Of a stretch of 64,000 nt of DNA, positions 2,929-47,858 are shown piece after piece. The position numbers were made by a program, and so were the translations under genes. The notes below the pieces were generated by a model. The model searched no databases and was not told where the DNA came from. It was given only the letters and a program-made list of their open reading frames with translations. Source of the DNA: a virus; IMG/VR virus record IMGVR_UViG_3300035193_000045. One strand, given 5' to 3'. Numbering within the stretch: position 1 is the stretch's first letter; each line of letters begins with the position of its first letter.

Positions 2929-2949
2929 TTTTAACTCCTTTTAAAGCCC

Positions 2950-2988
2950 AATGAGGGCACAATTATATATAAGCTTTCTGCCCTCATT
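2950..2988 (-). promoter_or_regulatory. 10-bp-stem hairpin between scaffold and capsid genes
   Basis: AATGAGGGCA (2950-2959) / TGCCCTCATT (2979-2988), 19-nt loop, in the 61-nt scaffold-capsid gap; no clear U-run, so an attenuator or RNA-stability element is more likely than a full terminator. Confidence 0.35.
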
Positions 2989-2989
2989 A

Positions 2990-3811: not shown

Positions 3812-3827
3812 AACTAACTCCTTTTAA

Positions 3828-4619
3828 TTAATGCAATTTATTTTGCAATTTTAAATCTCGAGCCAACGAGATTATTCTCCCTTTTAATTCAGGAGATATA
3901 TTAGGTAAATGATTAGATAGCCAATCAAATGCTTGACTATCCGTTAAACCCTTTTTTAAATTCTTTTTCTTTTTCTTTTCTAAAGATTCCTGAACAAGAA
4001 CCTGTCCGGCACTTTCCCCAGTTCTATCTCCGTCAACAGAATTACCTGGAATAGGGCTACCCATAGAAAGGGCTTTTGCTAATATATTCAATTGAGTATC
4101 TGTATTAACAGGGGCTTTTGTAATTGCTACTTCTCTAACAATTGCCTTTGTAACAGTAGACTTATTTAATGGATCTCTTCGTTGAATTTTCCCTTCAACC
4201 GAAAAACCCAATCTACGAGGGGTCTTATTTAAAGCGCATGCAAGGTTCCACAATTCATCAGCAGGTGGATAACCTTCAAGCAAATACCCCTCAGCCCAAT
4301 GACAATCTGCTTTTGCAATTTTTCCATCAGGCAATACATCGCCTTTTCGAAAACGCTCGGTTAACTCAGGGTACCCTACTAGATTACATGTATGACTCAC
4401 TTTAGGATTAGAATGATTATCATTAAACCATCCATATTTTACAAATTCAGAAAAGTCTAAACCATTTTGAATAAGAGTTTCTTCTTGTCTATCTGGAGTT
4501 TCTGTAGAAACAACTCCACCTATTCGGCGTTGTTGTCCTTCTGGAGCTGATGCTTTTGTAAAAAAAGAAGCTTCCCCAACAGAAAGTCTAAAATCATTTG
4601 TAGGAATTTCTTGAGGCAT
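3828..4619 (-). CDS. prohead maturation protease (HK97/S78-U35 type)
   Basis: RRIGGVVSTETPDRQEETL...GWFNDNH...GFSVEGK...EVAITKAPVN follows the order of His/Ser motifs in prohead serine proteases; located upstream of scaffold and capsid. Confidence 0.8.
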   Translation of the reverse strand: MPQEIPTNDFRLSVGEASFFTKASAPEGQQRRIGGVVSTETPDRQEETLIQNGLDFSEFVKYGWFNDNHSNPKVSHTCNLVGYPELTERFRKGDVLPDGKIAKADCHWAEGYLLEGYPPADELWNLACALNKTPRRLGFSVEGKIQRRDPLNKSTVTKAIVREVAITKAPVNTDTQLNILAKALSMGSPIPGNSVDGDRTGESAGQVLVQESLEKKKKKNLKKGLTDSQAFDWLSNHLPNISPELKGRIISLARDLKLQNKLH

Positions 4620-10363: not shown

Positions 10364-10376
10364 GCCTTTAAGTTAG

Positions 10377-10393: not shown

Positions 10394-10548
10394 ATATTGA
10401 AATTTAATAAATTCAAATACTTACAAAATATAGGAATTAAAGGCTTTATGAAAACTTTGCGTAGTTAAACCATATTCTTAAGGTTTTATCACTAAAAACT
10501 TAAGTAAAACAACCATTTAGTAAACTATGCATATTTTATAAATACCTA

Positions 10549-12864: not shown

Positions 12865-13061
12865 CGCTTAATGACATAACGCTCCTTCCCCCTTATAACT
12901 TTCGATAAATCAACAGGAAGTACTACTTTAATAGGCTCGCCACACCAATAACATTTAGAAGTGCATATATCCCCGTTCCAAATAATCCTACCCTTTACAT
13001 GTAATTTAAAACCGTCATCAGTTCTTTGAATTATTTGATTACGGCAATTAGGGCACTTCAT
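12861..13061 (-). CDS. zinc-ribbon protein
   Basis: MKCPNCRNQ...CYWCGEP: two CxxC pairs in 66 aa. Confidence 0.55.
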   Translation of the reverse strand: MKCPNCRNQIIQRTDDGFKLHVKGRIIWNGDICTSKCYWCGEPIKVVLPVDLSKVIRGKERYVIKR

Positions 13062-15432
13062 TTATATTGCCTTTAGTCCATTGTAATCTTCTAGTTACTA
13101 CAAATCTATTAATACCTTTATTCTTTTTTCGTGCTTCTTTCTTAGATTCTTTTACTGTATCAGGAATTACCAATTCTTTAACCGGTATAACGTTTTCACC
13201 AAATTGATAATCTTCTATGTCTCCATAGATACCTTTATTATCTTTTTGCTTCTTACGTTTTTTTAATTCTTCTTTGCCTATATTAAAGATTTCCTTATAC
13301 CGTATAGTTCCTCCACTACCAGGTTTCTTCACTTCTGTACCATAAAAATAATTCAATCCTAATCCTGGACCAGGGGATAAATCATAATTAGATTTATAGA
13401 TATTGCTTTTTAAATCATCCCATAATCTATATAATCTTTTATCAAATTTTTTCTTATTAGCTTCTGTTAAACTATTCAAAAAAGTTTTATCCCAAAAAGA
13501 TTTTACTTTACTATTAAAGTACTTAAAATCAGGAGAATTTCCTACTATTCTTTCAAATATATGATGTTGATTTGTATCTTTAAAATTACGAATAAATCTT
13601 TCCAATTCCCCAGCACCTTCATTCCAAAATGCATCAAATTCGGCAGATTGATTATAATATTCTTTACTATGCTCAGTTACTATGTTATGAACTTTACCAT
13701 ATCCAGCATTAAGATAATGAGATATTTCGTGAATAATAACTTTACTAGTTATTCTAGTGTCTAAATAAGTAGTATCATATGGATTCCTTAAATTAGTTAA
13801 CACTAATACATCTTTCCCATCATTAGTTTTACCAATACCATTGCCTCTAAAAACTCCTTTAGGAGTAATCAATATATGTAAATGTGATAAATTTTTATCA
13901 TTTGTAAATTGATTTGCCTGTATATAAACATTTCCATTTGAATCAAATTGCAAATTATCTTTATTATCCTTTACCCAACTAATTAATTCATCATAAAAAT
14001 TACTAGCTTTATTTCTCATTGATAAATTAGGATCTTTATAAGGTATAGTATGCTCAGCATTTGCCCATTTACCACCTTTAGGTCCTATGAATAAGGCTTT
14101 ATTTATTTCCTCTCTGTCTATGCCTACCCCACACCATCTTTTAAAAGCTTCGACATCCATAGAACTACAATCATAAATAAAATCATCCGGATTATCGTAA
14201 TTCATTCTATAGACATTTAATGCATGTTCTTCATTCCTAAAACCAAGCATACATTTTTGTTCATCATATAATTCATTATCAGGATTCTTTTGATCAATTA
14301 TATAAACTACAGGTGAATCTTTAAATGGTCCAACAAATACATCTAACTCTTCTTCATCCATAGAAGTGGTTCGTTTTACAAAACCATAAGATGCGCCGTA
14401 CATAATGGTTTCCCCTATTGAACCATCTCCATTAATCCATTTACGCTTATCCCCTTTTGGAGTTTCGATAGCAATAGGAATTCCTTGAAAAACTATATTA
14501 GCCTTAGCCTTTAAGGATTTATAAAAAAGATTTTCTTCAATTAAAGCCTTTTCTAATTCTTCAGGCTCTTGATAGATTTCCCCCAATTTACCTCCTGGTA
14601 CTAAATCACCTTCTTCATTAAATCCCCATCCCTTTGGAACACTAATCATGCTGCATACACAATTAGGATGAATTGGACCAACTACAACTTGCCAATCATT
14701 TTGTTTACGTCCTACATTACTCCCATGTTCTTCTAATGTAGATAATTTAAATATCCTAGGCTGCCCATCTGGACCAATATGTAAACGAATACAATGTTTA
14801 CATGCCCCTGGATTAGGTATACGCGCAACATAAACATCTTCTCCATACTTTTTTCTAAGGTAATCTGCTTGCCCTTGCTGTGTTGAATACATTATCTCAG
14901 TTACAGCAATTCGTTTCATATCCCTAGCCCAATCCCCAGTAGACCAACCTAAATCACTTCTAAGCTTTTCGATACTCTCTCTTCTTGCAGCATTTAAAGC
15001 AGTAAGATTTTTTATCTTATCCTCATACGCAATTCGAAATCTTTGATCTGCTTCTATCAAAGTTCTTCCCGTATCTTTTTCAATTACATTTCCTAATCCC
15101 ATACAATATTGTCCCGCATTTACTTGCGCCATACGAACAGCTCTTTGTTGCATTTGCGTTAACGGTTGTGGATTTTTTTGAATATAATCTTCAAATCTAT
15201 TATATGACATCTGTGAAGCTTGAGGACTATTTAATTTACCAAGCACTTGTCCGTATTCATATATTTTCTTAATAAGGTCCTTTGACTCTTTATTCAATAA
15301 CCCTTTATCTCGTAATTCATCAATCACTTCATCAGGTAACGCGTCATGACCAATTGTATTAGCTATAAATGCATTATGATGTAATTCAATTATATCTTGG
15401 ATTTCTAATATTTGATCAGGAGTTAACGGCAT
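13048..15432 (-). CDS. polyvalent head-morphogenesis protein (MuF/SPP1 gp7 domain + PPase-like region + HExxH zincin)
   Basis: CKHCIRLHIGPDGQPRIFKL...IHPNCVCSM is the MuF/gp7 signature. YGFVKRTTSMDEEELDVFVGP resembles inorganic pyrophosphatase. ALFIGPKGGKWANAEHTIPYKD is a shared module. VIIHEISHYLN is an HExxH motif. Confidence 0.75.
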   Translation of the reverse strand: MPLTPDQILEIQDIIELHHNAFIANTIGHDALPDEVIDELRDKGLLNKESKDLIKKIYEYGQVLGKLNSPQASQMSYNRFEDYIQKNPQPLTQMQQRAVRMAQVNAGQYCMGLGNVIEKDTGRTLIEADQRFRIAYEDKIKNLTALNAARRESIEKLRSDLGWSTGDWARDMKRIAVTEIMYSTQQGQADYLRKKYGEDVYVARIPNPGACKHCIRLHIGPDGQPRIFKLSTLEEHGSNVGRKQNDWQVVVGPIHPNCVCSMISVPKGWGFNEEGDLVPGGKLGEIYQEPEELEKALIEENLFYKSLKAKANIVFQGIPIAIETPKGDKRKWINGDGSIGETIMYGASYGFVKRTTSMDEEELDVFVGPFKDSPVVYIIDQKNPDNELYDEQKCMLGFRNEEHALNVYRMNYDNPDDFIYDCSSMDVEAFKRWCGVGIDREEINKALFIGPKGGKWANAEHTIPYKDPNLSMRNKASNFYDELISWVKDNKDNLQFDSNGNVYIQANQFTNDKNLSHLHILITPKGVFRGNGIGKTNDGKDVLVLTNLRNPYDTTYLDTRITSKVIIHEISHYLNAGYGKVHNIVTEHSKEYYNQSAEFDAFWNEGAGELERFIRNFKDTNQHHIFERIVGNSPDFKYFNSKVKSFWDKTFLNSLTEANKKKFDKRLYRLWDDLKSNIYKSNYDLSPGPGLGLNYFYGTEVKKPGSGGTIRYKEIFNIGKEELKKRKKQKDNKGIYGDIEDYQFGENVIPVKELVIPDTVKESKKEARKKNKGINRFVVTRRLQWTKGNINEVP

Positions 15433-15437: not shown

Positions 15438-15995
15438 TTATCCCTTTAAAATAACTTGTTTATCAAAATGTTTAAACCGATGGGTATCTGTCCACATTCG
15501 TAAAACGCCAAGTCTTAGAAATTTTATAATAGTATCTTGTTTAGGATCAGTAAATAACCCTTTCCGTAATTTCGGTCTAGGTTTTCTAATTATATGAGTT
15601 GAATACTTTTGCCTTGAATATTGCTGATTAAATGGATATTCATTGTAATAAGTATTTACTTGAACTAATCCAGCATAATCAGGAATTTCACTTAAAACCT
15701 TATCCGTATCTAAAATATCTGGAACGGCAAACCATAGGTGTTTAACAAATCTAGCATAATGATTATGCCATTTCTCTTTATCTATTTTCAAATCAGCCAT
15801 AGTTACCTTAATCTCTACTTCATGAAATATCCCAGTTTTAGATAGACATAATAAATCAGGTTCATGATTAAGCCCTAAGCCCCAACCGACATTTGGAACA
15901 ACTGAATACCTTCCAAAGTCAAAAAGATTACTTTTCCTAGTTAATGCATATTGCATTCGAGATTCCGTCCATCGTTGTATAGGAATTCTATTCAT
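15438..15995 (-). CDS. PD-(D/E)xK nuclease-like protein (MmcB-like)
   Basis: EPDLLCLSKTGIFHEVEIKVTMADLKIDKEKWH fits a D...ExK nuclease core; begins MNRIPIQ. Confidence 0.5.
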   Translation of the reverse strand: MNRIPIQRWTESRMQYALTRKSNLFDFGRYSVVPNVGWGLGLNHEPDLLCLSKTGIFHEVEIKVTMADLKIDKEKWHNHYARFVKHLWFAVPDILDTDKVLSEIPDYAGLVQVNTYYNEYPFNQQYSRQKYSTHIIRKPRPKLRKGLFTDPKQDTIIKFLRLGVLRMWTDTHRFKHFDKQVILKG

Positions 15996-16968
15996 TGGGA
16001 TCTATGTCAATAATCAAATTTCCATTAAAATCTTCAAATTCTAATCCACTGCAAAGGAATCCAGCGGCCTTTTTATGTCCTCCCCCACCAAAAGTTTTTG
16101 CTATCTGTGATACATCTATTTCTTTTTCAGTATATAAGGAAATTTTATAAGATTCTTTATGCCTTACAAAAACCATTATTAAATCAATAGATTTATTATA
16201 TAGTACGCTATCTTTAACAATGGATGAATTGCTAAAACCTTTATTTACGCATAGTACATTGTACAGTTCATCTTCAAATTCTAAAACAGCTATAAATCCA
16301 TATGTGTTTGTATATTTATAATTCAAATTACTTTGATATTTTTCAATTATTTCACCATTATGAATTACCTGTTTGATTATACTATCAGAAATCAATGAAT
16401 TATCTAACAAATCCTTCCATTCAAAATTACAAGGTCCTATATCATATAATTTCATCCCATATTGAAAAGGTACTACTTCCTTATCACTATGATCCCATAC
16501 ATCATATCGCCCTAATAATCTAATAGCTTTAGGTATATCTTCATCTGATAGTGGAACAGGTACTCCATCAATATAAGCAATTCCTGTATAAAAATACATA
16601 TAAGTTAATTCACATGCAGCGTAGTTAATGTCTCTAATACCTTGAATATCTTTATTATCGACAATCACACTTGCATGATGATCTATCCAAATTAAATCAA
16701 CTAAATTATTTAATCTTTTCATATCTTCTTTAGATAAAGAAAAATCAACCATTACTACTTTATCATAAGGAACACAATCTTCTTCAGTCATTTCATCTTT
16801 ATCTACAAATGACCAAGGAAAATCATCTCCATAATTCATTCCATATAAAATAACATTTTCATCAATAGAAGCATCTTCTGCATCATAAAAATAATTATAA
16901 ACTATAGCAGCTGAGCAAATACCGTCTAAATCGGCATTGTGATAAATACATAATACTTTTTCACACAT
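15988..16968 (-). CDS. DHH/DHHA1 family phosphoesterase (NrnA/RecJ-like)
   Basis: HNADLDGICSAAI (motif I/II), WIDHHAS (DHH) and FGGGGHKKAAGF (DHHA1 GGGH) in canonical order. Confidence 0.8.
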   Translation of the reverse strand: MCEKVLCIYHNADLDGICSAAIVYNYFYDAEDASIDENVILYGMNYGDDFPWSFVDKDEMTEEDCVPYDKVVMVDFSLSKEDMKRLNNLVDLIWIDHHASVIVDNKDIQGIRDINYAACELTYMYFYTGIAYIDGVPVPLSDEDIPKAIRLLGRYDVWDHSDKEVVPFQYGMKLYDIGPCNFEWKDLLDNSLISDSIIKQVIHNGEIIEKYQSNLNYKYTNTYGFIAVLEFEDELYNVLCVNKGFSNSSIVKDSVLYNKSIDLIMVFVRHKESYKISLYTEKEIDVSQIAKTFGGGGHKKAAGFLCSGLEFEDFNGNLIIDIDPNE

Positions 16969-17332: not shown

Positions 17333-17568
17333 TACCGCGCTCTCCATGTCCTAGGTTGTTCTCCAAGTAATTCAACAACTTCATCCATGTAAAATCCCCC
17401 TCTTTCAGCAATCCTTTCCGCAGACTGGGTATTATTCCATTTTTTATGATATGCTTCCCATACCTTTAAATGTTCTCCCCAAGAAATAAACCCATCAGGT
17501 ATACGTAGTAATTTACTGCCAATAACCCTTACTATTCGTTCTTCATCCATCAACCTACCTCTTTCCAA
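17332..17568 (-). CDS. hypothetical protein
   Basis: 78 aa; overlaps the stop of the giant gene by 19 nt. Confidence 0.55.
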   Translation of the reverse strand: MERGRLMDEERIVRVIGSKLLRIPDGFISWGEHLKVWEAYHKKWNNTQSAERIAERGGFYMDEVVELLGEQPRTWRAR

Positions 17569-20500
17569 AGTTTTTCAGAAGCACCTACATTCTTTGCCCA
17601 TTGCTCAAATACCATTGGATGGATATAACTAGCCTTTGCAATACTAGGAGTATTGTTCAATATTGTAGCTACTTTTTTACTTGTTTCCAACAACGCTTTA
17701 GCTAATAATCGTTTATCCTTTTTACTATCCCCGGTTAATGGAGGAGGAGTGTCAACTTCTTTTAATAATCTTTCAGCTGATTCCGTAGCCTTAATTGTTC
17801 TAAGGTCTTTTACTTTCATTCCTTTAGGAAGTATATTTTTTCCAATATCTAAAGCATTAGGATTAAATATATTACTATCTTCAGTAGCATTCCTTACATA
17901 ATACTCTAAGGCTTTTAATGTTACAGGATTCTGAACCACTGTAACATTCTTCTTACCTTCTTTACCAATAAAGTTTAAAACAGCCATTTTATTATTTAAA
18001 GCAATGTGATCCTTTTTTAAAGTACTTATACCGTAGTGACCATGCTTTTTAACACTTTCCATACTACCTGGACGTAATCCTGTTTCTGCAATAATAGCTA
18101 ATATAGTATGGCCTTGATGATCAATGCTACCAGGTTTTTCCTTAATTAATTTTTCATTCAATGTATTCACAATTTCTTTTTTCTTACTTCTAAATTTATT
18201 AATTCTATCCCATTTTTTCTTAGCATTTATTTCATGAAATTTTGGAGTATACCCACTTTGAACTTTCCCCTTAGTGTCTTTCCAAGTAATAATTGCTTTA
18301 CTATTTATATCACCAGAAAAATCTACTCTTACATCTGAAGCCGGAATAGTGGCTTGTGGTAACTTATCCACTTTTAATTCTTTTAATTTAGCTTGTACTT
18401 TACCAGGCAATTGAGAACCCGGAGGTTCCCTCTTAATAGGTTTATTTTCTACTTCATCTTTATAAGGTATAGTATGCTCAGCATTTGCCCATTTACCACC
18501 TTTAGGTCCTATGAATAAGGCTTTACGTAAATCAGATTCATTGATCGTAAAACCTTTTCTTATTTTAACTATTCCTGGATCTCCTTCTAGTATTGTAGCG
18601 TTGATACCTTGCTCACGTAAATTATTCATAGCTATTTTAGCATCATCTACGTCTATAGAAAAATTAGTTTGGTAGACATCATGGATATCGTCAGAAGCAA
18701 CTTTTTTAAGTTTTATATTCTTAGCGGAAACATAAGCTAAACTAGATTCCGCTTCTTTTACATTTTGCGGTTTTGATGGCCTTCCCCTACCTTGCTTAAC
18801 AGGTTCCTCTTTTATAGCTTCTCGTTTAAATGTAAGAGGTGGCTCTTTAATAGCCACTCGAGTCATTTTGTTCTTAGAACCAGGAGGTCTCCCTCGTTTC
18901 TTCTTTTCAGGCTCTTGAATAACCATTGAAGGAATAGCAACTCTTTTAATGTTTTTTGATCCAGGAGGTCTTCCACGTTTCTTTTTTTCAGGTTCTTGTT
19001 CAATTACTTCCTTAATTGGTTCCCTTATAACAAAAGCTAGTTTTTGTTCTTCTTGTTTAGGAACCTCTATGGGAATAACAGGAACATCGGGTTTATCTTC
19101 TTTAATAGGTAATTCCTTATTTTCTTCTATAGGCGTTTTACCTCCATGAATTTTATTCAATATATCACTGACGGTTAAGGGCTTATTCATCCATGCAATT
19201 TCTTCCTGCGTCAGCTTCTTTCCCTGATTTACTTTTTTAGATAATTCATATTTCCTTTTAATTATCTCCGTAACTGAAGAATCAAATAAATTATTAGAAG
19301 CGGTAACCCAATAAACATTTACGTTATTCTTTTGTCCAATTCTGTGTGCTCTATCCTCTGCTTGGCGCAAATCAGCAGCAGTCCAAGGTAAATCATTAAA
19401 AATAACTTTATCAGCAGCAGTTAAAGTAGCTCCTACAGCCATTGATTGGCGAGTAGTTATAAATACTCGTTTAGGAGAAACAAAATCACCGTTACCATCT
19501 GTTTTTTGAAACTCTTCCTTTACTGCTTCCCTTTTATCATCACTCATTTGTCCATGATGCAATAAGGAAATATTACCTAATTCTTCATGAATCTTTTTAG
19601 CTGCATCAACTGAATCAGTAAATACTATTATTTTTGAATCAGATGAATCTAATATCTCTTTAGCCAAATCAATAGTAGCAGGAACCTTTCCGATCGCTAC
19701 AGCAGCTTTAATTTTAGCAATTTCACCAATATCTTTATTTGCACCATAATCGGGTAAATTAGGTATGTCTTGTTGAATAATAGAAGTAACTTTTTCAGGT
19801 AAATCTTTTAAAACCTCTTCCTTACTCCTCGCAATATAGAAATCCTTCATATCACGCCAAAGTCCGCCAATAGTAGCAAATTTTATTTGATTTTTAGACG
19901 TAAATTTACCAGGTGCAACAACTTCCAACTGAGTAAATAATTCTTCTTTTTTATTTTTAACCGCCGTTCCAGACAATAGAATATGATGCTTTACTAATGC
20001 CGATACCTTTTGAATTGCTTTTGTCTGTTTAGCTTTAGGATTCTTCATCCTATGCGATTCATCAACCACTACTGTATCAAAACCAGCATCCTTTAAATAA
20101 GGATAAAACTTATTCAAAGATTCATAATTAACAGTTACAAGGTTCTTATCTTTAAGGTTTGGAACTCTATTATTTCTTATATCAGAAGATACTAATTCAG
20201 TTCCTTTAAACTGTCCTGGAAAAAACTTATCCGCTTCTTGTAGCCAAGTACGCCTTACTACTTTCGGAACAACTAAAATTGTTTTCTTATTTCCTTTAGC
20301 TAACCAAGCCAAAGTTTCAAGCGTCTTTCCAAGACCCATAGAATCCCCAATCAAAGCATTTCCATTTGTTTTATCTAAAAAATGAACTGCTTCATTTTGA
20401 TAAGGAAATAATGAATATTTACTGTCTAATAATTTCTGTACTTCAGGAATTGGCTTTTGTAATTCAGCTTGGTATCTCGCTTTTTCATTTTGTGCTTCTT

Positions 20501-22115
20501 TTAAGCCTTCTTCATCTATATATAACTTATAATTAGGCAATTGCTTCTTTATCTGTTGCAATGCTTCTTCTACTAAATTCAGTTCATGCGTTTCTCTAGC
20601 CCAATTATTGTCTTTATTTGCATAAAAAATACCAGACAATCCACCAGTTTTATTGGAAAATAAATCATTAAACTCTGAAGAATAGGTAGACCAAAAAGCA
20701 AATTTATCTTTACCTATTTTCTTAAGAACAATTGCATCTTTAATTCTTCTATCTTTAATGCTTTGCAAAGCTTCATCTACAGTAAGGTCCTTTTCATCTT
20801 TTTCAGATACTTTTTGTTTTCGTTCCCCCTTAATTGGATGAACTTTTATACCTATTTCCCCCATATCCTTCCTATAAGATTCAAAATCAAAATCATCTAA
20901 ATATTGTTCTTTAATAAAGTTCTCGCCGTTACTAAACCATACGTTGTATTTTTTATTAATGTCTCGAAACTTGCTAAAAGTTTCTCTATCAACCCTTCCA
21001 TCTACTGGAAGAGTGAGGCTCCCCCAAGTTTTATTGTAATAAGGTTTAATATCCGCTTTATAACCCTTACCTTCTCTTGTATCTGCTAATCCTAATTTAT
21101 GGTATTCTTCAATGCTATAGGCACCAACTATTTGACGTTTATATTTTTGAAGTAATTGCCGCTTTGCATTTACACCAGTTACAGATCTCCATCTGTCCAT
21201 ATCTACATAACTAAATCCAGTGTCGTCTTTTTCACGAGGATTAATTGCTTGATGACTATATAAAGCTTCACCTATTCTATCTAAAATTTGTTCAGCTTCT
21301 TCGTCACTATACCGTTCTTTAGTTTCTGAATAACTATGTACTTCGTCTTTCCAAGGTATAGTGTGTTCTGGATCAGCCCATTTACCTCCACGTGGACCGA
21401 TAAATGGGCCTTTTTGTGCTTTATTTAAAGCTTCATTGTAGTCTTCAATATAGGAATCTGTATCTATATCATAATGAAAATATGATATACCTTCATCTTC
21501 CCCTTTATTTAATCCATCTACTCTAATACCCGTATTGGGTTTAATTTGAATAGCTCGGTCATCCCAAAGTTCAGCCATATGCAGATCTTTTTCGTATACT
21601 ACCGGTAATTCTTCTCCAATATATTTTTTGCACCATTTCTTTATAGCGGTAATAGATGCTCTAAAATCACTAGAATTTGGATTTGCTCTAGCAGTCATAA
21701 TTTTTACATTTTTATTATTGGCAATCCATTCCTTAACTCTATCAACCATTTTAGGAATTGGCTTACCAATAGAAGCAGAGCCTTTATATTCATGGTATTC
21801 CGCTAATGTCCCATCTAAATCAACGCCAATCCAAGAAGGATTGGAACCAAGACTCTTATTTAATTTTCCCTTATCTAATACTTTACTTATATCCGCAAGC
21901 ATCATATTAGTTTGGTCTTTATAACCTATTTCCCATTGCTTTAATACTTCTAATAGAACTGGATCAGTAAACAATTTATCTTTATCATCTATAGCTTTAA
22001 TTAAACGATTCTTTAAATCAAAATCTACTTCCCCAATGTAATCAGCAATAGATTTTACTAAAGAAACTCTTTTAGAAAAAAGTTCTTCCTTATTTGCTTC
22101 TATTTGTATACGCAT
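17550..22115 (-). CDS. giant polyvalent protein: HAD phosphatase-like + SNF2 helicase + AT-hooks + type IB topoisomerase-like domain
   Basis: HAD: GVDLDGTL / MTAR / LWDDRA. SNF2: GDSMGLGKT, VVVDESHRMKN, LLSGTAVKN, QAEDRAHRIGQ. AT-hooks: two KKKRGRPPGSKN plus GRGRPSKP. Topo IB: LNFIGKEGKKNVTVV, VKDLRTIKAT, LNNTPSIAKASYIHP (Tyr codon 17625-17627). Also two FIGP[RK]GGKWA modules. Confidence 0.85.
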   Translation of the reverse strand: MRIQIEANKEELFSKRVSLVKSIADYIGEVDFDLKNRLIKAIDDKDKLFTDPVLLEVLKQWEIGYKDQTNMMLADISKVLDKGKLNKSLGSNPSWIGVDLDGTLAEYHEYKGSASIGKPIPKMVDRVKEWIANNKNVKIMTARANPNSSDFRASITAIKKWCKKYIGEELPVVYEKDLHMAELWDDRAIQIKPNTGIRVDGLNKGEDEGISYFHYDIDTDSYIEDYNEALNKAQKGPFIGPRGGKWADPEHTIPWKDEVHSYSETKERYSDEEAEQILDRIGEALYSHQAINPREKDDTGFSYVDMDRWRSVTGVNAKRQLLQKYKRQIVGAYSIEEYHKLGLADTREGKGYKADIKPYYNKTWGSLTLPVDGRVDRETFSKFRDINKKYNVWFSNGENFIKEQYLDDFDFESYRKDMGEIGIKVHPIKGERKQKVSEKDEKDLTVDEALQSIKDRRIKDAIVLKKIGKDKFAFWSTYSSEFNDLFSNKTGGLSGIFYANKDNNWARETHELNLVEEALQQIKKQLPNYKLYIDEEGLKEAQNEKARYQAELQKPIPEVQKLLDSKYSLFPYQNEAVHFLDKTNGNALIGDSMGLGKTLETLAWLAKGNKKTILVVPKVVRRTWLQEADKFFPGQFKGTELVSSDIRNNRVPNLKDKNLVTVNYESLNKFYPYLKDAGFDTVVVDESHRMKNPKAKQTKAIQKVSALVKHHILLSGTAVKNKKEELFTQLEVVAPGKFTSKNQIKFATIGGLWRDMKDFYIARSKEEVLKDLPEKVTSIIQQDIPNLPDYGANKDIGEIAKIKAAVAIGKVPATIDLAKEILDSSDSKIIVFTDSVDAAKKIHEELGNISLLHHGQMSDDKREAVKEEFQKTDGNGDFVSPKRVFITTRQSMAVGATLTAADKVIFNDLPWTAADLRQAEDRAHRIGQKNNVNVYWVTASNNLFDSSVTEIIKRKYELSKKVNQGKKLTQEEIAWMNKPLTVSDILNKIHGGKTPIEENKELPIKEDKPDVPVIPIEVPKQEEQKLAFVIREPIKEVIEQEPEKKKRGRPPGSKNIKRVAIPSMVIQEPEKKKRGRPPGSKNKMTRVAIKEPPLTFKREAIKEEPVKQGRGRPSKPQNVKEAESSLAYVSAKNIKLKKVASDDIHDVYQTNFSIDVDDAKIAMNNLREQGINATILEGDPGIVKIRKGFTINESDLRKALFIGPKGGKWANAEHTIPYKDEVENKPIKREPPGSQLPGKVQAKLKELKVDKLPQATIPASDVRVDFSGDINSKAIITWKDTKGKVQSGYTPKFHEINAKKKWDRINKFRSKKKEIVNTLNEKLIKEKPGSIDHQGHTILAIIAETGLRPGSMESVKKHGHYGISTLKKDHIALNNKMAVLNFIGKEGKKNVTVVQNPVTLKALEYYVRNATEDSNIFNPNALDIGKNILPKGMKVKDLRTIKATESAERLLKEVDTPPPLTGDSKKDKRLLAKALLETSKKVATILNNTPSIAKASYIHPMVFEQWAKNVGASEKLWKEVG

Positions 22116-23376: not shown

Positions 23377-24984
23377 TTACAAAACTACATCCAATATTAA
23401 ACTTTTTTTCACTTCATCATCTTCTTCATTTTGATCAACTAAATCATCCTCAGAATATTTAGACAATAAAGATCTTATATCTTGTTCCCCATTACCCCCT
23501 TTCTCATTATCATCTTGTGTCATTCCATTTTCATTTTGGTCACCTTCTTCTTGTTGCTGCATTGCTTGTGCTTGTTGTTTATTCTGGATATAAACCTGAT
23601 TGAGTATAATGTCTCCTTGGTCATCCGGTAATGGGGGTCTATCTTCTTCAGCCCTTAATTCATTTACAGTAATATAGGTTTGAACACGTTTCTGATTTCT
23701 TGTAGCTACTGCATCTTTTGTTTCTGCATCAAGCCCCATAAACTCAAAAGTAAAATCAGAATTAATAGGCTCTACTAAATGAATAGCAATTAATTCACCT
23801 ATGTCATTCAATAATGGACGTAAACCGCGCTCTTTACTTTCAATAATCTTTTCAGCAGATGAACTTTCAACCAAAGCTCTCGATTGACCGGTATTGCCAT
23901 AATTGAAATTAATCTCTGCTGGATCAGTTGCATATACAGCAGAAGCTTCTTTAATAAGAAAATCCATCCATGCAGAAAACTCCATATCCCTATGTGTCTG
24001 CTGCATATTAATCCATTCAATTCCATCGGTATTAGTTATAGGAGTTTTCCATGCATTATTCACTGAAGAAAGTAAGTTATACCAATGCCTTTTAAATTCA
24101 GCAAATTGCTTAGCATTCGCTGTTCCTTTAAAATTCAAAATACCTTTGGCACTAGAACCTTGTGTAAAAAACTTCTGATTATATTGATGGCCGTACAATA
24201 ACGAAGTAATTGTAGACACCAATAATTCTAATTCACTTACACCATATCCTTGAAGCCTGATATTAGTATTTGGGTGTCTTACACCAAATACCATTTCATA
24301 TTGGGTATATTCATTGATCACTACTCCATCGTATACTTGTACATATCTAATCTCTTTAGTTTTGTCTTCATCATTGAATACGTTCCCATTATCTGCAATA
24401 CGAATAGTAGCTGCGTCTGTTGCGTACCATTCAGCAGGTAAACCTTTTCTATTGGGGACTATTTCAAAACACATTTGATCATATATAAGAGTGTCAAATA
24501 CTAATTTTTTTAGAAATGTTTTAAAACTATCCCTCCCTCTAGGATTATTAGTCACTCCTGTATTTAATAAAATATTATTCATTTGTGCAATGAATTTCTG
24601 TTCTTGTTTTGTGGTATTCTTATCCTTGTCCTTTAATACCACTCTAAACCCCAATGAGAATTTATCTTGTTGTGGAGTTGCAAAAGCCGCTACTTGATTC
24701 ATTCTAAGAAATACAATTGCTTGAACAATTGGAAGTTTACAAAAAATATTCCACAAAGTAATATATGTAATAGAGGAAGGCCGATCCTTATATCCAAATT
24801 GTTCTACTATTGAATAAGGATCAAAGAAAATAGACTTAGGATCATTATCTGCCTTTTGCACTGGATTAGATAATTGCTGTGCTTGAACATTGATTGCTTG
24901 CCGTGACTGCTCAAGTTTAGCTTTTATCAAATCCGTAGCAATAGGCATCATTTCTTGAAAAGTACTAATAATGCCCATAATCAA
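23377..24984 (-). CDS. portal protein
   Basis: 535 aa with an acidic C-terminal tail. The central ...RDMEFSAWMDFLIKEASAVYATDPAEINF... resembles the portal wing/stem region. Lies within the head-assembly neighbourhood. Confidence 0.7.
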   Translation of the reverse strand: MIMGIISTFQEMMPIATDLIKAKLEQSRQAINVQAQQLSNPVQKADNDPKSIFFDPYSIVEQFGYKDRPSSITYITLWNIFCKLPIVQAIVFLRMNQVAAFATPQQDKFSLGFRVVLKDKDKNTTKQEQKFIAQMNNILLNTGVTNNPRGRDSFKTFLKKLVFDTLIYDQMCFEIVPNRKGLPAEWYATDAATIRIADNGNVFNDEDKTKEIRYVQVYDGVVINEYTQYEMVFGVRHPNTNIRLQGYGVSELELLVSTITSLLYGHQYNQKFFTQGSSAKGILNFKGTANAKQFAEFKRHWYNLLSSVNNAWKTPITNTDGIEWINMQQTHRDMEFSAWMDFLIKEASAVYATDPAEINFNYGNTGQSRALVESSSAEKIIESKERGLRPLLNDIGELIAIHLVEPINSDFTFEFMGLDAETKDAVATRNQKRVQTYITVNELRAEEDRPPLPDDQGDIILNQVYIQNKQQAQAMQQQEEGDQNENGMTQDDNEKGGNGEQDIRSLLSKYSEDDLVDQNEEDDEVKKSLILDVVL

Positions 24985-24996: not shown

Positions 24997-27297
24997 TTAC
25001 ATACGGCCGCAATTAGGACAAACTGTTATTGCTTTACTAAAAGTATTACTGCAATGTCTACACTTATTAACAGTACTTAAAGGAATACCAGATAAAGGAC
25101 GATTCATTAAATGGGCTTTGTAAAAAGATTCGTCTTGCATAGAACGAACAGCCATTTCATCAGATGTCATTCGTACATTCTCAATTGACTTCTGCACAGG
25201 CTCATCTGGTTCAATGTAAACCATATCATTTTTCATTAATTGAGTTTTTCGTAAAGCAACTTCTCTAGCCATATAGTCATGCGCCTGAGTAGAAATGTTA
25301 AGGCTTTTTCTTGCAGTGTTCTCAATAGGCTTCTTATGATCTTTCATATTTTTCTCGTCTACTTCATCATCTTCAGATAACTTCTTTACAGACGGCTTTG
25401 CTACACCTCTATCAAGGGTAGCGCTACCATTACCAGGAATACCAGAAGATTTTCCTTTACCATCTAATGATTGATCTCCTTGTTCTTTACCTTTCCCAAT
25501 AACAGGTAAAGACTCATCCTCAATTGTTGATTTCAAGAAAGTCTCTAAGATTTCAGTTTCCCTCATTCCTTTATTTAAACTTTTAACAAAATCACTCCAT
25601 GAATCTGAAATAGGTTTATGGGTAACAGCGTCATGCTTTACGTCTCTTAATAAATCCCCTTCTTTAAATGACCAATATTCTAAAGTAACATTTTTATCTC
25701 TACCTGGACTACTATGCTTAAATACTCCGCCAAGTTTATGTAAATCATCCATAGAATTTAATTTATTACGATTTAGTTTATGTAATAAATTTCTAATGGG
25801 TTTATAAGCATCTTCATAAATATATCGATAACCCCCTCCCGGTTTAGGTATTCGTTGTTTGTATTTACCACCTATAGGATTACCTTTTTCTAAATCAATT
25901 TCTTCATTTCCTAGTGATTTATTATACGTAGACGAATATTTCTGTTTTAAATATGTTAAAGCCGTCTGCTTATTTTCCGAATTCAAATCTTTACCAGAAT
26001 TTTTAACAGCCATTCCAGCAAGTTTGTTAAAAGCTTTATTCCTATCGTACGTCCCTAATTTTCGTAATTGCACAAGCCATTTCTTTCCGTCAGCTGACCC
26101 TAATGCCCTGTCAATATAACTAGTAATACCTTTTCTATCTTTCTTCCCACCAATTTCATATTTACCATTTTCATAAAAATAAACATAACCTCCTCCCTTT
26201 TTAGGAACTTTTCTAATATACTTTCCGCCTCGGTCTGCTTTAATTAATTCATCATCCGTAATACCTATACAAAACATTGCTTTTTCCATTTCCTTACCTC
26301 CTAAATATTTTCTAGCCCTATTCTGTAAGGCTACTTTTTGTTGTTCCGATAAACCACACTTAGACTGAGGAATGCGGGCAATTGCATTCCGTGTATGTGC
26401 TAAATCAATTTTACCGTCCATTCCTCTATAAGGAAAATGACGCAATGAACGAGGTATTGTCTTACCACTTTCATCTTTCTTTCCCCCTGATTCAATGTAA
26501 AGAAAAGCACTATCCGGTAAATCATTCATATGCGCATTTGACCAAACTGCCTTTTGTAAATTATTATGAAACATATATTTACCAATTGCTTTATTAAAAT
26601 TTTTAGGAGAAATCACCATAGTTATTTTAGACCCATTTTTATTTAATCCATATAATCCATTACTAATTAAATTATTCCAAGAAATATTATCATATTCCAG
26701 TTTATAATTAGAGATTAAAGAATTTGCCACATTAATAAAATCTTTATTACCAGAACTTTGTATAGAATCATAAGACATTCCTGTAATTTTTTTCCATATA
26801 GATAACGATACTTTAGAATTTAGTTCCCTATATCCTTTATCATCAAAATATTTCAACAAAGTGTCCGTTTGCGAACCACTTAAATCTTTAAGAGATTTTT
26901 TAACCCAAACCTCTTTTATAGAACCAAGATGACTTTGTTTGGGAACCTTTTGATTAAATCCTAAATAACTATCACTAATTGCATTAATGGGGTTACCTCT
27001 GTCATCTAATACAAACCTAATATTATATTTCTGGGCAATGTCGATAGGGTCAAAATATTTATTATCTCTGGCATAGTACCTATCATCATCAGTAGTTTCA
27101 ACATAAGCGTATTTTCCATCCCATTTAGATAAACTAAATCCCTTTTTATCCTTAATGGTTGTATCATTAGGCAATTTGTCTAATATAATTTTAGTAGAAA
27201 TACTTTCATTACCTTCTTTCCAAGGTATAGTGTGTTCTGGATCAGCCCATTTACCTCCACGTGGACCGATAAATGGGCCTTTTTGTGCTTTATTCAT
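24997..27297 (-). CDS. large polyvalent/virion-associated protein
   Basis: 766 aa. N-terminal QKGPFIGPRGGKWADPEHTIPWK module, two GGKYxxRxPKxGGGYxYxYE modules, LRHFPY...HTRNAIARIPQ motif and a C-terminal CRHC...CPNC zinc ribbon. Immediately upstream of the portal gene. Confidence 0.6.
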   Translation of the reverse strand: MNKAQKGPFIGPRGGKWADPEHTIPWKEGNESISTKIILDKLPNDTTIKDKKGFSLSKWDGKYAYVETTDDDRYYARDNKYFDPIDIAQKYNIRFVLDDRGNPINAISDSYLGFNQKVPKQSHLGSIKEVWVKKSLKDLSGSQTDTLLKYFDDKGYRELNSKVSLSIWKKITGMSYDSIQSSGNKDFINVANSLISNYKLEYDNISWNNLISNGLYGLNKNGSKITMVISPKNFNKAIGKYMFHNNLQKAVWSNAHMNDLPDSAFLYIESGGKKDESGKTIPRSLRHFPYRGMDGKIDLAHTRNAIARIPQSKCGLSEQQKVALQNRARKYLGGKEMEKAMFCIGITDDELIKADRGGKYIRKVPKKGGGYVYFYENGKYEIGGKKDRKGITSYIDRALGSADGKKWLVQLRKLGTYDRNKAFNKLAGMAVKNSGKDLNSENKQTALTYLKQKYSSTYNKSLGNEEIDLEKGNPIGGKYKQRIPKPGGGYRYIYEDAYKPIRNLLHKLNRNKLNSMDDLHKLGGVFKHSSPGRDKNVTLEYWSFKEGDLLRDVKHDAVTHKPISDSWSDFVKSLNKGMRETEILETFLKSTIEDESLPVIGKGKEQGDQSLDGKGKSSGIPGNGSATLDRGVAKPSVKKLSEDDEVDEKNMKDHKKPIENTARKSLNISTQAHDYMAREVALRKTQLMKNDMVYIEPDEPVQKSIENVRMTSDEMAVRSMQDESFYKAHLMNRPLSGIPLSTVNKCRHCSNTFSKAITVCPNCGRM

Positions 27298-28948: not shown

Positions 28949-29149
28949 TTAAATACATTTAATTATACTATGATCTTTACACCACTGCACTCCAACACCA
29001 TTTTGCATTTTTATACTATGATCTTTACACCACCGCACACCGACCCCATTTTGCGTTTTTATACTTGTAAACGCATCTTTGTTGTCCAATGTGATCGTTA
29101 TGCGATCACATTCACGATCAATCAAAAAAGTGACATTTTTAATCAACAT
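28949..29149 (-). CDS. hypothetical protein with internal 16-aa tandem repeat
   Basis: Begins MLIKNVT, identical to the XRE gene start. Contains NGVGVRWCKDHSIKMQ / NGVGVQWCKDHSIIKC. Confidence 0.5.
   Translation of the reverse strand: MLIKNVTFLIDRECDRITITLDNKDAFTSIKTQNGVGVRWCKDHSIKMQNGVGVQWCKDHSIIKCI
28965..29060. repeat. 48-bp tandem direct repeat, 2 copies (43/48 identical)
   Basis: 28965-29012 and 29013-29060, followed by a 5-nt start of a third unit. Confidence 0.9.
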
Positions 29150-47798: not shown

Positions 47799-47811
47799 AC
47801 CCTTATGTTAG

Positions 47812-47828: not shown

Positions 47829-47858
47829 AACAAGTAAATAAGGTTAAAAAATAAAAAC

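What the first reader, a model, noticed from the sequence alone, without database searches (positions are those of the whole stretch)
17550..22115. 1521-aa fusion of HAD phosphatase-like, SNF2 helicase, AT-hooks and a type IB topoisomerase-like domain
The domain order is read directly from the motifs: DLDGT HAD; DESH-box SNF2 motifs I-VI; an 81-bp tandem repeat (about 18880-19040) encoding two KKKRGRPPGSKN AT-hooks plus GRGRPSKP; and a C-terminal LNFIGKEGK...KDLRTIKAT...LNNTPSIAKASYIHP region matching the poxvirus/bacterial Topo IB catalytic signature, including the Tyr at 17625-17627. A chromatin-remodeller-type motor joined to a Topo IB in one probably virion-delivered protein could remodel or relax host or phage DNA on entry, or counter DNA-targeting defences. 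I do not recall this combination being described.
Basis: partly seen in the sequence, partly recalled or inferred. Interest (0 to 1): 0.65.

Follow-up and report, generated by a model that had tools for sequence, protein, structure and literature searches.

The report
Phage cargo polyprotein with topoisomerase IB
This is a real 1521-residue phage gene in the capsid-assembly block that strings a SNF2 DNA motor, DNA-binding hooks and a complete poxvirus/bacterial-type topoisomerase IB into one 'polyvalent' protein, with each movable module preceded by a previously undescribed 25-residue tag, which suggests (but does not prove) enzymes loaded into the virus head and injected with the DNA.

Summary
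ORF 17550-22115 (-) is intact. It contains a SNF2 ATPase (motifs I-VI), three AT-hooks and a two-domain Topo IB with an invariant R1348/K1385/R1439/N1488/Y1497 set. Pfam scores Topoisom_I at 66 bits, and the predicted fold matches variola TopIB at E 8e-12. The HAD call is only sub-threshold.

The protein is not an isolated oddity. It belongs to the phage "polyvalent proteins" of Iyer et al. 2017. The gene lies between the portal and the prohead protease and capsid genes, next to DHH, MmcB-like and InPase genes, in a roughly 100-kb uncultured phage distantly related to SPO1.

Seven related protein clusters keep the SNF2-Topo IB fusion. In other phages the two are adjacent genes separated by a single stop codon (L008), or sit in the same head cluster, or Topo IB is joined to other modules.

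The junction is a conserved, predicted-disordered motif of about 25 aa, GP[FY]IGPRGGKWADPxHTIPW. It precedes each movable module, occurs in about 800 protein clusters, and shows gene conversion between its copies within a genome. I found no description of it.

Best reading: capsid-loaded, co-injected DNA enzymes, paralleling the Topo IB that vaccinia packages in its virion. Packaging and enzyme activities are untested.

The parts
17550..22115 (-). Whole ORF, 1521 aa plus stop: phage polyvalent protein
21861..22115 (-). aa 1-85: family-specific N-terminal helical region, conserved at the N-terminus of most SNF2-type homologues (P0002-P0013, P0016-P0024)
   Evidence: alignment A2; helices in the AF2 model; sequences
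21546..21842 (-). aa ~92-190: HAD-IIIA-like phosphatase module (DLDGT 99-103, MTAR 140-143, WDD 184-186). It is a mobile module: absent from P0009-P0024 and C-terminal in P0013
   Evidence: PHROG 1238/415; Pfam HAD_PNKP at 13 bits; NCBIfam HAD-IIIA at 18 bits; A5; no PDB sequence hit
21342..21425 (-). Leader motif copy A2 (aa 231-258, NKAQKGPFIGPRGGKWADPEHTIPWKDE). The DNA is 100% identical over 80 nt to the copy at 27215-27294
   Evidence: pLDDT below 50
20436..21329 (-). aa 263-560: accessory region always found with this SNF2 subfamily. It is modelled at pLDDT 75-89 and has no match to a known fold
   Evidence: (phrog_62 covers 362-977)
19176..20423 (-). aa 565-980: SNF2/SWI2 ATPase core with motifs I-VI intact
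18768..18986 (-). aa 1044-1116: Lys/Pro-rich linker with three AT-hooks. It includes the 81-nt-spaced duplication 18869-18917 / 18950-18998
   Evidence: AT_hook at 16.4 bits against a cut-off of 17.4, 3 stretches
18531..18710 (-). aa 1136-1195: small alpha/beta domain (VSAKNIKLKK...VKIRKGF) that ends the SNF2 module in homologues with and without Topo IB
18453..18527 (-). Leader motif copy B1 (aa 1197-1221, RKALFIGPKGGKWANAEHTIPYKDE). The DNA is identical over 69 nt to the copy at 14033-14101. It marks the fusion/fission point with Topo IB
   Evidence: pLDDT below 50
17553..18425 (-). aa 1231-1521: two-domain type IB topoisomerase with catalytic R1348, K1385, (K1436) R1439, N1488 and Y1497. 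The Tyr codon is at 17625-17627
24997..27297 (-). 766-aa ORF upstream of the portal gene. Its first residues are leader motif copy A1 (27215-27294). Its size varies in relatives (407-766 aa)
23377..24984 (-). Portal protein gene, conserved upstream neighbour
13048..15432 (-). 794-aa InPase polyvalent protein with leader motif copy B2 (14033-14101) before an extra C-terminal module. That module and the motif are both missing in the 559-aa variants
15438..16968 (-). MmcB-like nuclease gene and DHH/DHHA1 phosphoesterase gene, conserved downstream neighbours
1504..4619 (-). Prohead protease (3828-4619), a 273-aa ORF (2990-3811; no family hit, assumed to be the scaffold from its position) and the major head protein (1504-2928). 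These close the head-morphogenesis block
   Evidence: major head protein 38% identical to SPO1-like phages

Best explanation
The ORF encodes a phage polyvalent protein: a chain of separable effector modules encoded inside the head-morphogenesis block.

Module order:
- N-terminal family-specific helices
- a HAD-IIIA-like phosphatase
- leader motif
- a SNF2 dsDNA translocase with its accessory region, three AT-hooks and a small alpha/beta domain
- leader motif
- a complete poxvirus/bacterial-type Topo IB

Shown: the SNF2 and Topo IB modules have every catalytic residue and are predicted to be active. The modules are exchangeable between phages. The fusion point coincides with a conserved leader motif of about 25 aa that is predicted to be disordered and that precedes modules but never ends proteins.

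Inferred: the protein, whole or cut at the leaders, is loaded into the procapsid and enters the cell with the DNA. The AT-hooks then hold the SNF2 motor on the AT-rich (31% GC) incoming genome, where it displaces or outruns DNA-targeting host proteins. Topo IB, which needs no ATP, removes the torsional stress created by ejection, by translocation and by the first rounds of transcription. This would parallel the encapsidated vaccinia Topo IB, which promotes early transcription. HAD and the neighbouring DHH, MmcB and InPase proteins would be further co-delivered nucleic-acid or nucleotide enzymes.

The leader motif is most likely a loading and/or processing tag. Its coding DNA also acts as a recombination joint for swapping modules.
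For: Domain identity:
- Pfam, PHROG and PDB hits.
- The Topo IB catalytic set is invariant in 22 sequences.
- The AF2 model has pLDDT above 90, and Foldseek matches variola TopIB at E 7.8e-12 and TM 0.64 over 286/313 columns. Deinococcus TopIB scores 1.6e-10 and tyrosine recombinases only about 1e-3.

Class membership:
- Homologues shuffle SNF2, Topo IB, HAD, ddrB-ParB, InPase, Zeta and RelA/SpoT modules.
- Of 64 motif-bearing representatives, 15 have InPase, 4 Zeta, 4 Topoisom_I, and others have ART-PolyVal or LPD1.

Head-module context:
- Window gene order is terminase, 766-aa ORF, portal, this ORF, DHH, MmcB, InPase, protease, 273-aa ORF, capsid.
- The same order holds in L003-L006.
- Topo IB also lies in the structural block in L001, L002, L007, L008 and L009, next to MuF in L009.

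Separable modules:
- In L008 the order is portal, SNF2, stop codon plus RBS, Topo IB gene.

Leader motif:
- 4 copies in the window; their coding DNA is the top direct-repeat family.
- 797 cluster representatives, with 2-5 copies in the best 150.
- 38 of 119 proteins have a copy in the first 25 aa (7.4 expected), and 1 instance lies in the last 60 aa (17.7 expected).
- pLDDT is below 50.
- Gene conversion: 78/78 and 77/78 nt identical within a genome against 69-70/78 between genomes.

Poxvirus precedent: vaccinia encapsidates its Topo I, which acts in early transcription (PMC12188299, refs 72 and 73).
Against: There is no direct evidence of virion incorporation, cleavage, ATPase activity or relaxation activity. 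Everything functional is inferred from sequence, a structure model and gene neighbourhood.

The phage and all motif-bearing relatives are uncultured, so no proteomics can be consulted.

HAD is below curated thresholds, and its AF2 model is poor.

SNF2 is a very common polyvalent module, so its co-occurrence with Topo IB (4 of 7 contexts) may not be specific. L009 and L007 have Topo IB without SNF2 within 10 kb, and L009 has no leader motif at all.

The motif's 21 conserved residues are too many for a simple protease site, and no binding partner has been identified.
Confidence: 0.6

Rival explanations
1. An integrated helicase-topoisomerase machine. The uncleaved polypeptide works as a unit. 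The AT-hooks anchor it, SNF2 translocation generates twin supercoil domains, and the tethered Topo IB relaxes only one of them. ATP hydrolysis would therefore produce net supercoiling or directed relaxation, analogous to reverse gyrase, to condition the phage or host DNA.
For: Eight clusters keep the two modules in one frame. Even when split, the two genes stay adjacent and in the same order and frame. In L001 and L002 they are in the same cluster. AT-hooks always lie between the motor and Topo IB.
Against: The fusion is not obligate (L008). Topo IB also occurs alone or with InPase, ParB or NUDIX neighbours, and without SNF2 nearby. A disordered leader motif separates the two modules, the same motif that heads unrelated modules. 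Topo IB relaxes both signs of supercoil, so a net effect would need special geometry, for which there is no evidence.
Confidence: 0.12
2. A non-packaged intracellular enzyme. The protein is simply expressed in the infected cell and serves phage replication, recombination or transcription topology, like the Topo I noted in some jumbo phages. Its location near the portal gene would be incidental.
For: There is no direct packaging evidence. The neighbouring DHH and MmcB-like genes are nucleic-acid enzymes. Jumbo phages encode a Topo I with a tyrosine-recombinase-type catalytic domain as part of their DNA-manipulation gene set (PMC7824862).
Against: The replication genes (DNA polymerase, SSB, UvsX, SbcCD, clamp) lie more than 25 kb away in a separate block. 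Topo IB is in the structural block in all seven contexts examined, including next to MuF. Its partners are hallmark polyvalent-protein domains.
Confidence: 0.2
3. The C-terminal domain is a tyrosine recombinase, integrase or telomere resolvase, not a topoisomerase.
For: Topo IB and tyrosine recombinases share a catalytic fold. NCBIfam gives a weak XerA hit at 5e-4 and 19.6 bits against a cut-off of 220. Foldseek lists XerH at about 1e-3.
Against: Pfam Topoisom_I is well above its cut-off. The best sequence and fold matches are Topo IB enzymes, by 8-9 orders of magnitude, and they include the Topo IB-specific N-terminal domain. The active-site pattern R-K-R-N-Y matches bacterial TopIB. Its size of about 290 aa lacks the extra domains of a resolvase.
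Confidence: 0.03
4. Assembly or frameshift artefact joining two genes.
For: A split version exists in another phage (L008).
Against: The frame is uninterrupted here and in P0002-P0008. Four of those were traced to independent JGI and ENA contigs of about 88-104 kb. Conservation runs through the junction.
Confidence: 0.01

Closest known systems
Phage/plasmid polyvalent proteins (Iyer, Burroughs, Anand, de Souza, Aravind 2017; archetype P1 DarB)
   Same: One large polypeptide holds several unrelated enzymatic modules, including a SWI2/SNF2 ATPase. Domains are extensively shuffled between relatives. The genes are linked to portal, MuF and head genes. The proposed role is in proteins injected with the DNA to counter host defences (PMC5512222).
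   Different: The SNF2 module here is not paired with an adenine methylase in the same protein. Topo IB is not mentioned as a module in the main text of that paper. Neither that paper (term search) nor the searchable library (motif strings) turned up a repeated leader motif between modules.
Poxvirus (vaccinia/variola) type IB topoisomerase
   Same: It is the best structural match (variola TopIB, E 7.8e-12, both domains). It is the same small two-domain enzyme. The catalytic Arg, Lys, Arg and Tyr are conserved. The vaccinia enzyme is encapsidated and acts in early transcription.
   Different: The phage domain has Asn where poxviruses have His265. Identity is about 22%. The phage domain is part of a polyprotein or preceded by a leader motif. 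Its packaging is inferred, not shown, and its sequence specificity is unknown.
Bacterial TopIB (Deinococcus radiodurans, PDB 2f4q/3m4a)
   Same: It is the top sequence hit in the PDB (5e-12). It shares the R-K-R-N-Y active site, with Asn in the His position.
   Different: The bacterial enzyme is a free-standing cellular protein. The phage clade was not found in about 186,000 species-representative genomes with clade-specific patterns. Its phylogenetic position relative to bacterial TopIB was not resolved here.
Reverse gyrase (SF2 helicase-like domain fused to a topoisomerase)
   Same: An SF2 ATPase and a type I topoisomerase are in one polypeptide.
   Different: Reverse gyrase uses a type IA topoisomerase and the fusion is obligate. 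Here the topoisomerase is type IB, a disordered tag separates the modules, and the fusion is facultative (L008).
Capsid-targeting sequences of T4 internal proteins (own knowledge: short N-terminal peptides that direct IPI-III and Alt into the prohead and are removed by the prohead protease)
   Same: It is a short peptide placed N-terminal to cargo proteins encoded by a tailed phage. The leader motif here is strongly biased to N-termini and to the front of modules.
   Different: There is no sequence similarity. The motif here is about 25 aa, is repeated inside polyproteins, and neither targeting nor cleavage has been shown.
Topo I with a tyrosine-recombinase-type catalytic domain in jumbo phages (phiRSL1, Lu11, PaBG; Iyer et al. 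2021)
   Same: [quoted passage not shown]
   Different: They were not detected by tblastn with this module at E of 1e-3 or better, so they are a different, distant clade. They are described among DNA-manipulation genes, not as head-module cargo.

Membership tests
Type IB topoisomerase (poxvirus/bacterial type) | Match to the curated family profile above threshold | tested here: met
   Pfam PF01028 Topoisom_I scores 66.3 bits against a cut-off of 23.7 on aa 1293-1515. PDB phmmer: D. radiodurans TopIB 5.2e-12, variola TopIB 2.3e-11.
Type IB topoisomerase (poxvirus/bacterial type) | Catalytic Arg-Lys-Arg-His/Asn-Tyr set | tested here: met
   R1348, K1385, R1439, N1488 and Y1497 align to the catalytic residues of variola and Deinococcus TopIB. 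They are invariant in a 22-sequence alignment.
Type IB topoisomerase (poxvirus/bacterial type) | Two-domain Topo IB fold, closer to Topo IB than to tyrosine recombinases | tested here: met
   AF2 pLDDT is above 90. Foldseek matches variola TopIB at E 7.8e-12 and TM 0.64 over 286 columns, against XerH at about 1e-3.
Type IB topoisomerase (poxvirus/bacterial type) | ATP- and Mg-independent relaxation through a 3'-phosphotyrosyl intermediate | not testable with these tools
   Needs a relaxation assay with a Y1497F control.
SNF2/SWI2 ATPases | SNF2-related N-lobe and Helicase_C profiles above threshold, motifs I-VI intact | tested here: met
   PF00176 scores 85 bits and PF00271 scores 53 bits. GLGKT, DESH, SGT and QAEDRAHRIGQ are present. 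The top PDB hit is SsoRad54-like 1z63 at 7.7e-26.
Named bacterial SNF2 subfamilies (RapA, DISARM DrmD, Zorya ZorD, DpdE, pilus-regulating Snf2) | Score above the NCBIfam equivalog cut-off | tested here: not met
   The best score is 124 bits against a cut-off of 1100. All others are far below their cut-offs.
Phage polyvalent proteins (Iyer 2017) | Two or more unrelated effector domains in one phage polypeptide, with domain shuffling among relatives | tested here: met
   HAD-like, SNF2 and Topo IB modules are present here. Homologues swap in ddrB-ParB, InPase, Zeta, RelA/SpoT and inteins.
Phage polyvalent proteins (Iyer 2017) | Gene-neighbourhood link to portal, MuF or head-morphogenesis genes | tested here: met
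   Window, L001-L009.
Phage polyvalent proteins (Iyer 2017) | Physical presence in the virion and delivery with the DNA | not testable with these tools
   All relatives are uncultured. Needs virion proteomics.
HAD-superfamily phosphatase (subfamily IIIA / PNKP-like) | Profile match above the curated threshold | tested here: not met
   Pfam HAD_PNKP scores 13.4 bits against 27.6. NCBIfam HAD-SF-IIIA scores 18 bits against 44.6. A PDB profile search finds nothing.
HAD-superfamily phosphatase (subfamily IIIA / PNKP-like) | Motif I DxDxT plus downstream Thr and acidic motifs; Rossmannoid fold | tested here: inconclusive
   DLDGT, MTAR and WDD are invariant in 7 modules. PHROG 1238 scores 2.5e-8 and PHROG 415 (polynucleotide kinase) 1.7e-5. 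The AF2 model of this part has pLDDT 41-66.
AT-hook | R-G-R-P core flanked by basic residues | tested here: inconclusive
   Three cores are visible in the sequence. Pfam AT_hook scores 16.4 bits against a cut-off of 17.4, with three stretches.
Reverse-gyrase-like helicase-topoisomerase machines | Obligate fusion of the ATPase and the topoisomerase | tested here: not met
   In L008 the two are separate genes. Topo IB also occurs with other partners.

The most novel reading that the evidence does not exclude
The roughly 25-aa leader GP[FY]IGPRGGKWADPxHTIPW would be a portable address tag, a capsid-loading and/or maturation-cleavage signal that is repeated inside polyproteins. On this reading the ORF is a string of individually addressed cargo enzymes, and it would deliver the first virion-borne Topo IB known outside poxviruses. 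The tag's coding DNA, kept identical within a genome by gene conversion, would double as the recombination joint that lets about 800 families of phage effector modules be swapped like cassettes. A corollary is that these head-module Topo IBs could represent the unknown viral Topo IB group that Forterre and Gadelle (2009) proposed as the source of bacterial TopIB.
Probability: 0.3. Interest if true: 0.8.

Novelty: new variant of a known kind. Interest (0 to 1): 0.55.

Why it matters
If the reading is right, tailed phages, like poxviruses, carry a Topo IB in the particle and deliver it with the genome, together with a SNF2 motor. That points to DNA topology and protein clearance as an early battleground of infection.

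The conserved leader motif gives a concrete, testable handle on an open question: how large multi-enzyme cargo is addressed to capsids, and how it is processed. It could also be useful as a tag for loading foreign proteins into phage heads.

The gene-conversion signature suggests a simple mechanism for the rapid domain shuffling that defines polyvalent proteins.

The phage Topo IB clade is also relevant to the unresolved origin of the patchily distributed bacterial TopIB.

Tried and rejected
- Tandem Repeats Finder on the ORF did not report the claimed 81-bp repeat. A direct-repeat search did find it.
- A look-up of the window's own protein in the assembly index found it not on record.
- A profile of the HAD modules against PDB sequences gave no HAD hit.
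- The AF2 model of aa 1-565 was mediocre (mean pLDDT 65), and Foldseek gave nothing better than E 0.08. The folds of aa 1-85 and 263-560 therefore remain unknown.
- A scan of about 186,000 representative genomes for the Topo IB clade returned 31 pattern matches, none confirmed. No host or prophage was identified.
- tblastn of the leader motif against cultured phages and plasmids gave no match.
- tblastn of the Topo IB module against cultured phages gave one weak hit, Bacteroides phage BS162P1 'top1E' at 25% identity.
It then returned only three tiny ORFs, so it was useless as a census. The exhaustive representative search and a Pfam scan were used instead.
- A literature search for the motif strings found no papers.
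- No supplementary files of Iyer 2017 are held, so I cannot exclude that Topo IB appears in their supplementary architecture lists.
- Rejected: frameshift artefact, tyrosine recombinase or resolvase, and membership in the DrmD, ZorD, DpdE or RapA families.


Full report

Yes. ORF 17550..22115 on the minus strand is one open frame of 1521 aa.

Pfam reports SNF2-rel_dom (aa 572-781, 5.5e-24), Helicase_C (818-927, 4.4e-14) and Topoisom_I (1293-1515, 3.3e-18, 66 bits against a gathering score of 23.7).

The claimed 81-bp repeat is a duplication of a 49-nt core with 86% identity, spaced 81 nt apart (18869-18917 and 18950-18998). It encodes the two KKKRGRPPGSKN AT-hooks. Tandem Repeats Finder does not call it. 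Pfam's AT_hook model scores 16.4 bits against a cut-off of 17.4, with three stretches.

HAD is the weakest element. DLDGT, MTAR and WDD are invariant in seven copies of the module, and two PHROG families match (2.5e-8, and 1.7e-5 for 'polynucleotide kinase'). However, Pfam HAD_PNKP (13 bits) and NCBIfam HAD-IIIA (18 bits) are below their cut-offs. A profile search of PDB sequences finds nothing, and the AF2 model of this part is poor.

**2. Is the Topo IB call sound?**

Yes.

- The C-terminal 322 aa hit Deinococcus radiodurans TopIB (5.2e-12) and variola TopIB (2.3e-11) by sequence. The alignments place R1348, K1385, K1436/R1439 and Y1497 on the catalytic residues. N1488 sits where poxviruses have His and where the bacterial enzyme also has Asn.
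- These positions are invariant in a 22-sequence alignment of the clade.
- An AlphaFold2 model of aa 1100-1521 has pLDDT above 90 across aa ~1230-1521.
- Foldseek returns variola TopIB first (E 7.8e-12, TM 0.64 over 286 of 313 residues, so both domains match). Deinococcus TopIB and human Topo I follow, and tyrosine recombinases appear only at about 1e-3.

The other criterion, two genes joined by a frameshift, is also not met. The same uninterrupted architecture occurs in seven further protein clusters with 75-93% identity, and four of them were traced to independent JGI and ENA contigs of about 88-104 kb.

**3. What kind of genome and neighbourhood is this?**

Most genes in the window, and all ORFs of 150 aa or more, read on the minus strand. 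In the direction of transcription the order is:

- DNA polymerase, SSB, UvsX, SbcCD, clamp
- large terminase (48642-50570)
- a 766-aa ORF
- portal (23377-24984)
- small ORFs
- this ORF
- DHH phosphoesterase
- MmcB-like nuclease
- a 794-aa InPase protein
- a sigma factor
- prohead protease (3828-4619)
- a 273-aa ORF with no family hit, assumed from its position to be the scaffold
- major head protein (1504-2928)

.

The head protein is 38% identical to those of SPO1-like Herelleviridae. No cultured phage is close. The ORF therefore sits inside the head-morphogenesis block of a roughly 100-kb uncultured phage with 31% GC.

**4. The protein is a polyvalent protein.**

The homologue list and the sequences show free shuffling of modules:

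- SNF2 with Topo IB (P0001-P0008)
- the same SNF2 family with ddrB-ParB, Zeta toxin, RelA/SpoT or intein insertions but without Topo IB (P0009-P0028)
- Topo IB with InPase and ddrB-ParB (P0029), or with other modules (P0030-P0036, P0105)
- free-standing Topo IB of about 350 aa (P0120-P0140)

The HAD module is absent from P0009-P0024 and is C-terminal in P0013.

This matches the class defined by Iyer et al. 2017 (PMC5512222). That paper describes SWI2/SNF2 modules, links to portal and MuF genes, and injection with the DNA. Its main text mentions topoisomerase only in a reference title, and its supplements are not held. A later review from the same group notes a phage-specific Topo I with a tyrosine-recombinase-type catalytic domain in a few jumbo phages (PMC7824862). 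That clade is not detectable with this module by tblastn.

**5. How tight is the SNF2-Topo IB link?**

I examined seven genomic contexts of this Topo IB clade. All lie in the structural block.

- Window type (L003-L006): SNF2 and Topo IB are fused.
- L008: portal, a 2187-aa SNF2 protein, a 355-aa Topo IB gene, InPase, sigma factor. This is the same synteny as the window, but as two genes. The SNF2 protein ends ...AT-hooks...VSAKNIELSK...IKIRKED*. Five codons later, in the same frame and behind an AAGAGG ribosome-binding site, the Topo IB gene starts.
- L001: portal, a 2256-aa InPase-ParB-Topo IB protein, a methylase, a 1025-aa SNF2 protein, an S78 protease.
- L002: terminase, a Topo IB polyvalent protein, portal, a 2691-aa SNF2 protein.
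- L009: portal, a NUDIX protein, Topo IB, DUF5661, MuF, capsid. There is no SNF2 within 10 kb.
- L007: Topo IB lies between the capsid gene and the tail tube gene.

The fusion is therefore one of several linkage states of two separable modules. The association with SNF2 is frequent but not obligatory.

**6. A conserved leader motif marks the joints.**

The junction between the SNF2 part and Topo IB (aa 1197-1221), and the junction after HAD (aa 231-258), carry the same motif of about 25 aa: (L)xK[AG]GP[FY]IGP[RK]GGKWAD[PA]xHTIP[WY].

*Copies in the window.* Two more copies exist. One forms the very N-terminus of the 766-aa ORF upstream of the portal (MNKAQKGPFIGPRGGKW...). The other lies in the middle of the InPase protein, before a C-terminal module. 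The 559-aa variants of that protein in relatives lack both the motif and that module. The motif's coding DNA is the top direct-repeat family of the 64-kb window.

*Positional bias.* In the first set of retrieved proteins there are 201 instances in 98 of 141 proteins, 18 in the first 60 aa and none in the last 60 aa. An exhaustive profile search of 1.84 billion representatives finds 797 proteins at E of 1e-3 or better (483 at 1e-10 or better), and the best 150 carry 2-5 copies each. In 119 of those independent proteins, 38 have a copy within the first 25 aa (7.4 expected if placement were uniform). Only 1 of 270 instances lies in the last 60 aa (17.7 expected). The median spacing between copies is 265 aa, about one domain.

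*Partner domains.* These are polyvalent hallmarks. Of 64 proteins scanned, 15 have InPase, 4 Zeta toxin, 4 Topoisom_I, 3 DUF5661, 2 SAM lyase, and others have ART-PolyVal, LPD1, GGDEF or dual-specificity phosphatases. The closest free-standing Topo IBs also carry the motif just upstream of the enzyme.

*Structure and prior description.* AlphaFold gives both copies pLDDT below 50. That fits a short linear motif that folds only on a partner. I found no paper containing the motif strings. tblastn finds no copy in cultured phages or plasmids.

**7. Gene conversion at the motif.**

The two A-type copies in the window are 5.9 kb apart, on either side of the portal gene. They are identical at 78 of 78 core nucleotides, while their flanks are unrelated.

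In relative L004 the corresponding copies match at 77 of 78, but they differ from the window copies at 8-9 positions. Both L004 copies share the same eight derived substitutions, which change KAQKGP to KSQAGP. The B-type pair behaves the same way, with one shared substitution.

Paralogous copies are thus homogenised within each genome. This shows ongoing recombination between the motif-coding repeats. It also offers a mechanism for swapping modules, which fits the size variation of the flanking proteins among close relatives.

**8. Mechanism: what is shown and what is inferred.**

Shown:
- intact catalytic equipment of SNF2 and Topo IB
- AT-hook cores in the sequence
- modularity
- location in the head block
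- the properties of the leader motif

Inferred:
- The protein is loaded into procapsids and delivered with the DNA, as proposed for polyvalent proteins and as known for P1 DarB.
- The AT-hooks keep the SNF2 translocase on the AT-rich genome, where it clears or outruns DNA-targeting host proteins.
- Topo IB dissipates torsional stress from ejection, translocation and first transcription. The closest functional precedent is vaccinia Topo IB, which is encapsidated and acts mainly in early transcription (PMC12188299, citing Shaffer & Traktman 1987 and Da Fonseca & Moss 2003).

For the leader motif I favour a loading and/or processing tag. Its bias to the front of modules, including at true protein N-termini, argues against a passive linker. 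Its length argues against a bare protease site. No partner has been identified.

**9. Rivals.**

- An integrated, reverse-gyrase-like machine is possible but is weakened by the facultative fusion.
- A purely intracellular replication or transcription enzyme cannot be excluded without proteomics, but it fits the gene neighbourhood poorly.
- A recombinase or resolvase function, and an assembly artefact, are rejected.

**10. Novelty and score.**

The ORF is a new variant within a known class. New elements, as far as the searchable literature shows, are:

- Topo IB as head-module or polyvalent cargo, recurring in about 6% of motif-bearing proteins
- the SNF2-Topo IB fusion/fission series
- the leader motif, with its concerted evolution

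[quoted passage not shown] This phage clade shares the bacterial Asn variant and is a candidate, but I could not run the phylogeny. All function remains inferred, and the phages are uncultured. I set interest at 0.55.

Noticed in passing
window 10377-10392 (-) and 47812-47827 (-), inside the 83-nt repeat 10312-10394 / 47747-47829: Two sigma-54-type promoter-like elements (TGGCAC-N5-TTGCA and TGGTAT-N5-TTGCA) lie on the coding strand. That is 2 matches against 0.09 expected. Each is followed by an RBS and a start codon, and each sits just upstream of one of the window's two GC-rich islands (8-10 kb at 43% GC; 44-48 kb at 38-39% GC, against about 31% elsewhere). This suggests a distinct, possibly sigma-54-dependent, transcription class.
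   Followed up: partly
window 29129-29220 and 29765-29856: A 92-nt direct repeat with 97% identity flanks the 186-aa HTH (Xre-like) regulator ORF 29225-29785. It may be a duplicated regulatory or promoter region.
   Followed up: no
window 28963-29058: A 48-nt tandem duplication (2 copies, 90% identity) lies just downstream of the repeat above.
   Followed up: no
window 24997-27297 (-): The 766-aa ORF upstream of the portal starts with the leader motif at residue 2. It has no family match apart from weak zinc-ribbon-like hits at its C-terminus. Its orthologous position holds proteins of 407, 451 or 652 aa in close relatives, so it is a variable cargo slot.
   Followed up: partly
homologues P0017, P0024, P0029, P0031, P0036, P0127 and P0030-P0032, P0105: Other short motifs recur in front of modules: 'GGKYIRRVPxxxGxxxYRYxY' and 'GSGYEYWYPGQG'. 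One instance is a hybrid with the leader motif (GPRGGKYHRRVPKADGKGYTYYY). The motifs may therefore form a family of related tags.
   Followed up: no
homologues P0020, P0022, P0023: Intein or homing-endonuclease domains (Hint, Hom_end) are listed for the SNF2 homologues P0020, P0022 and P0023. In P0022 the insertion lies directly after the Walker A GLGK (GDEMGLGKAASVDERILTPQG...).
   Followed up: no
L008 9983-10003: The SNF2 and Topo IB genes of this relative are in the same frame, separated only by TAG plus five codons with an RBS. I did not test whether the TAG is ever read through or recoded.
   Followed up: partly
window 13048-15432 (-) versus L003/L006 orthologues: The InPase protein is 794 aa here and in L004 but 559 aa in L003 and L006. 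The extra C-terminal module begins right after a leader motif. That module has only weak DUF6273 and WLM-like hits.
   Followed up: partly
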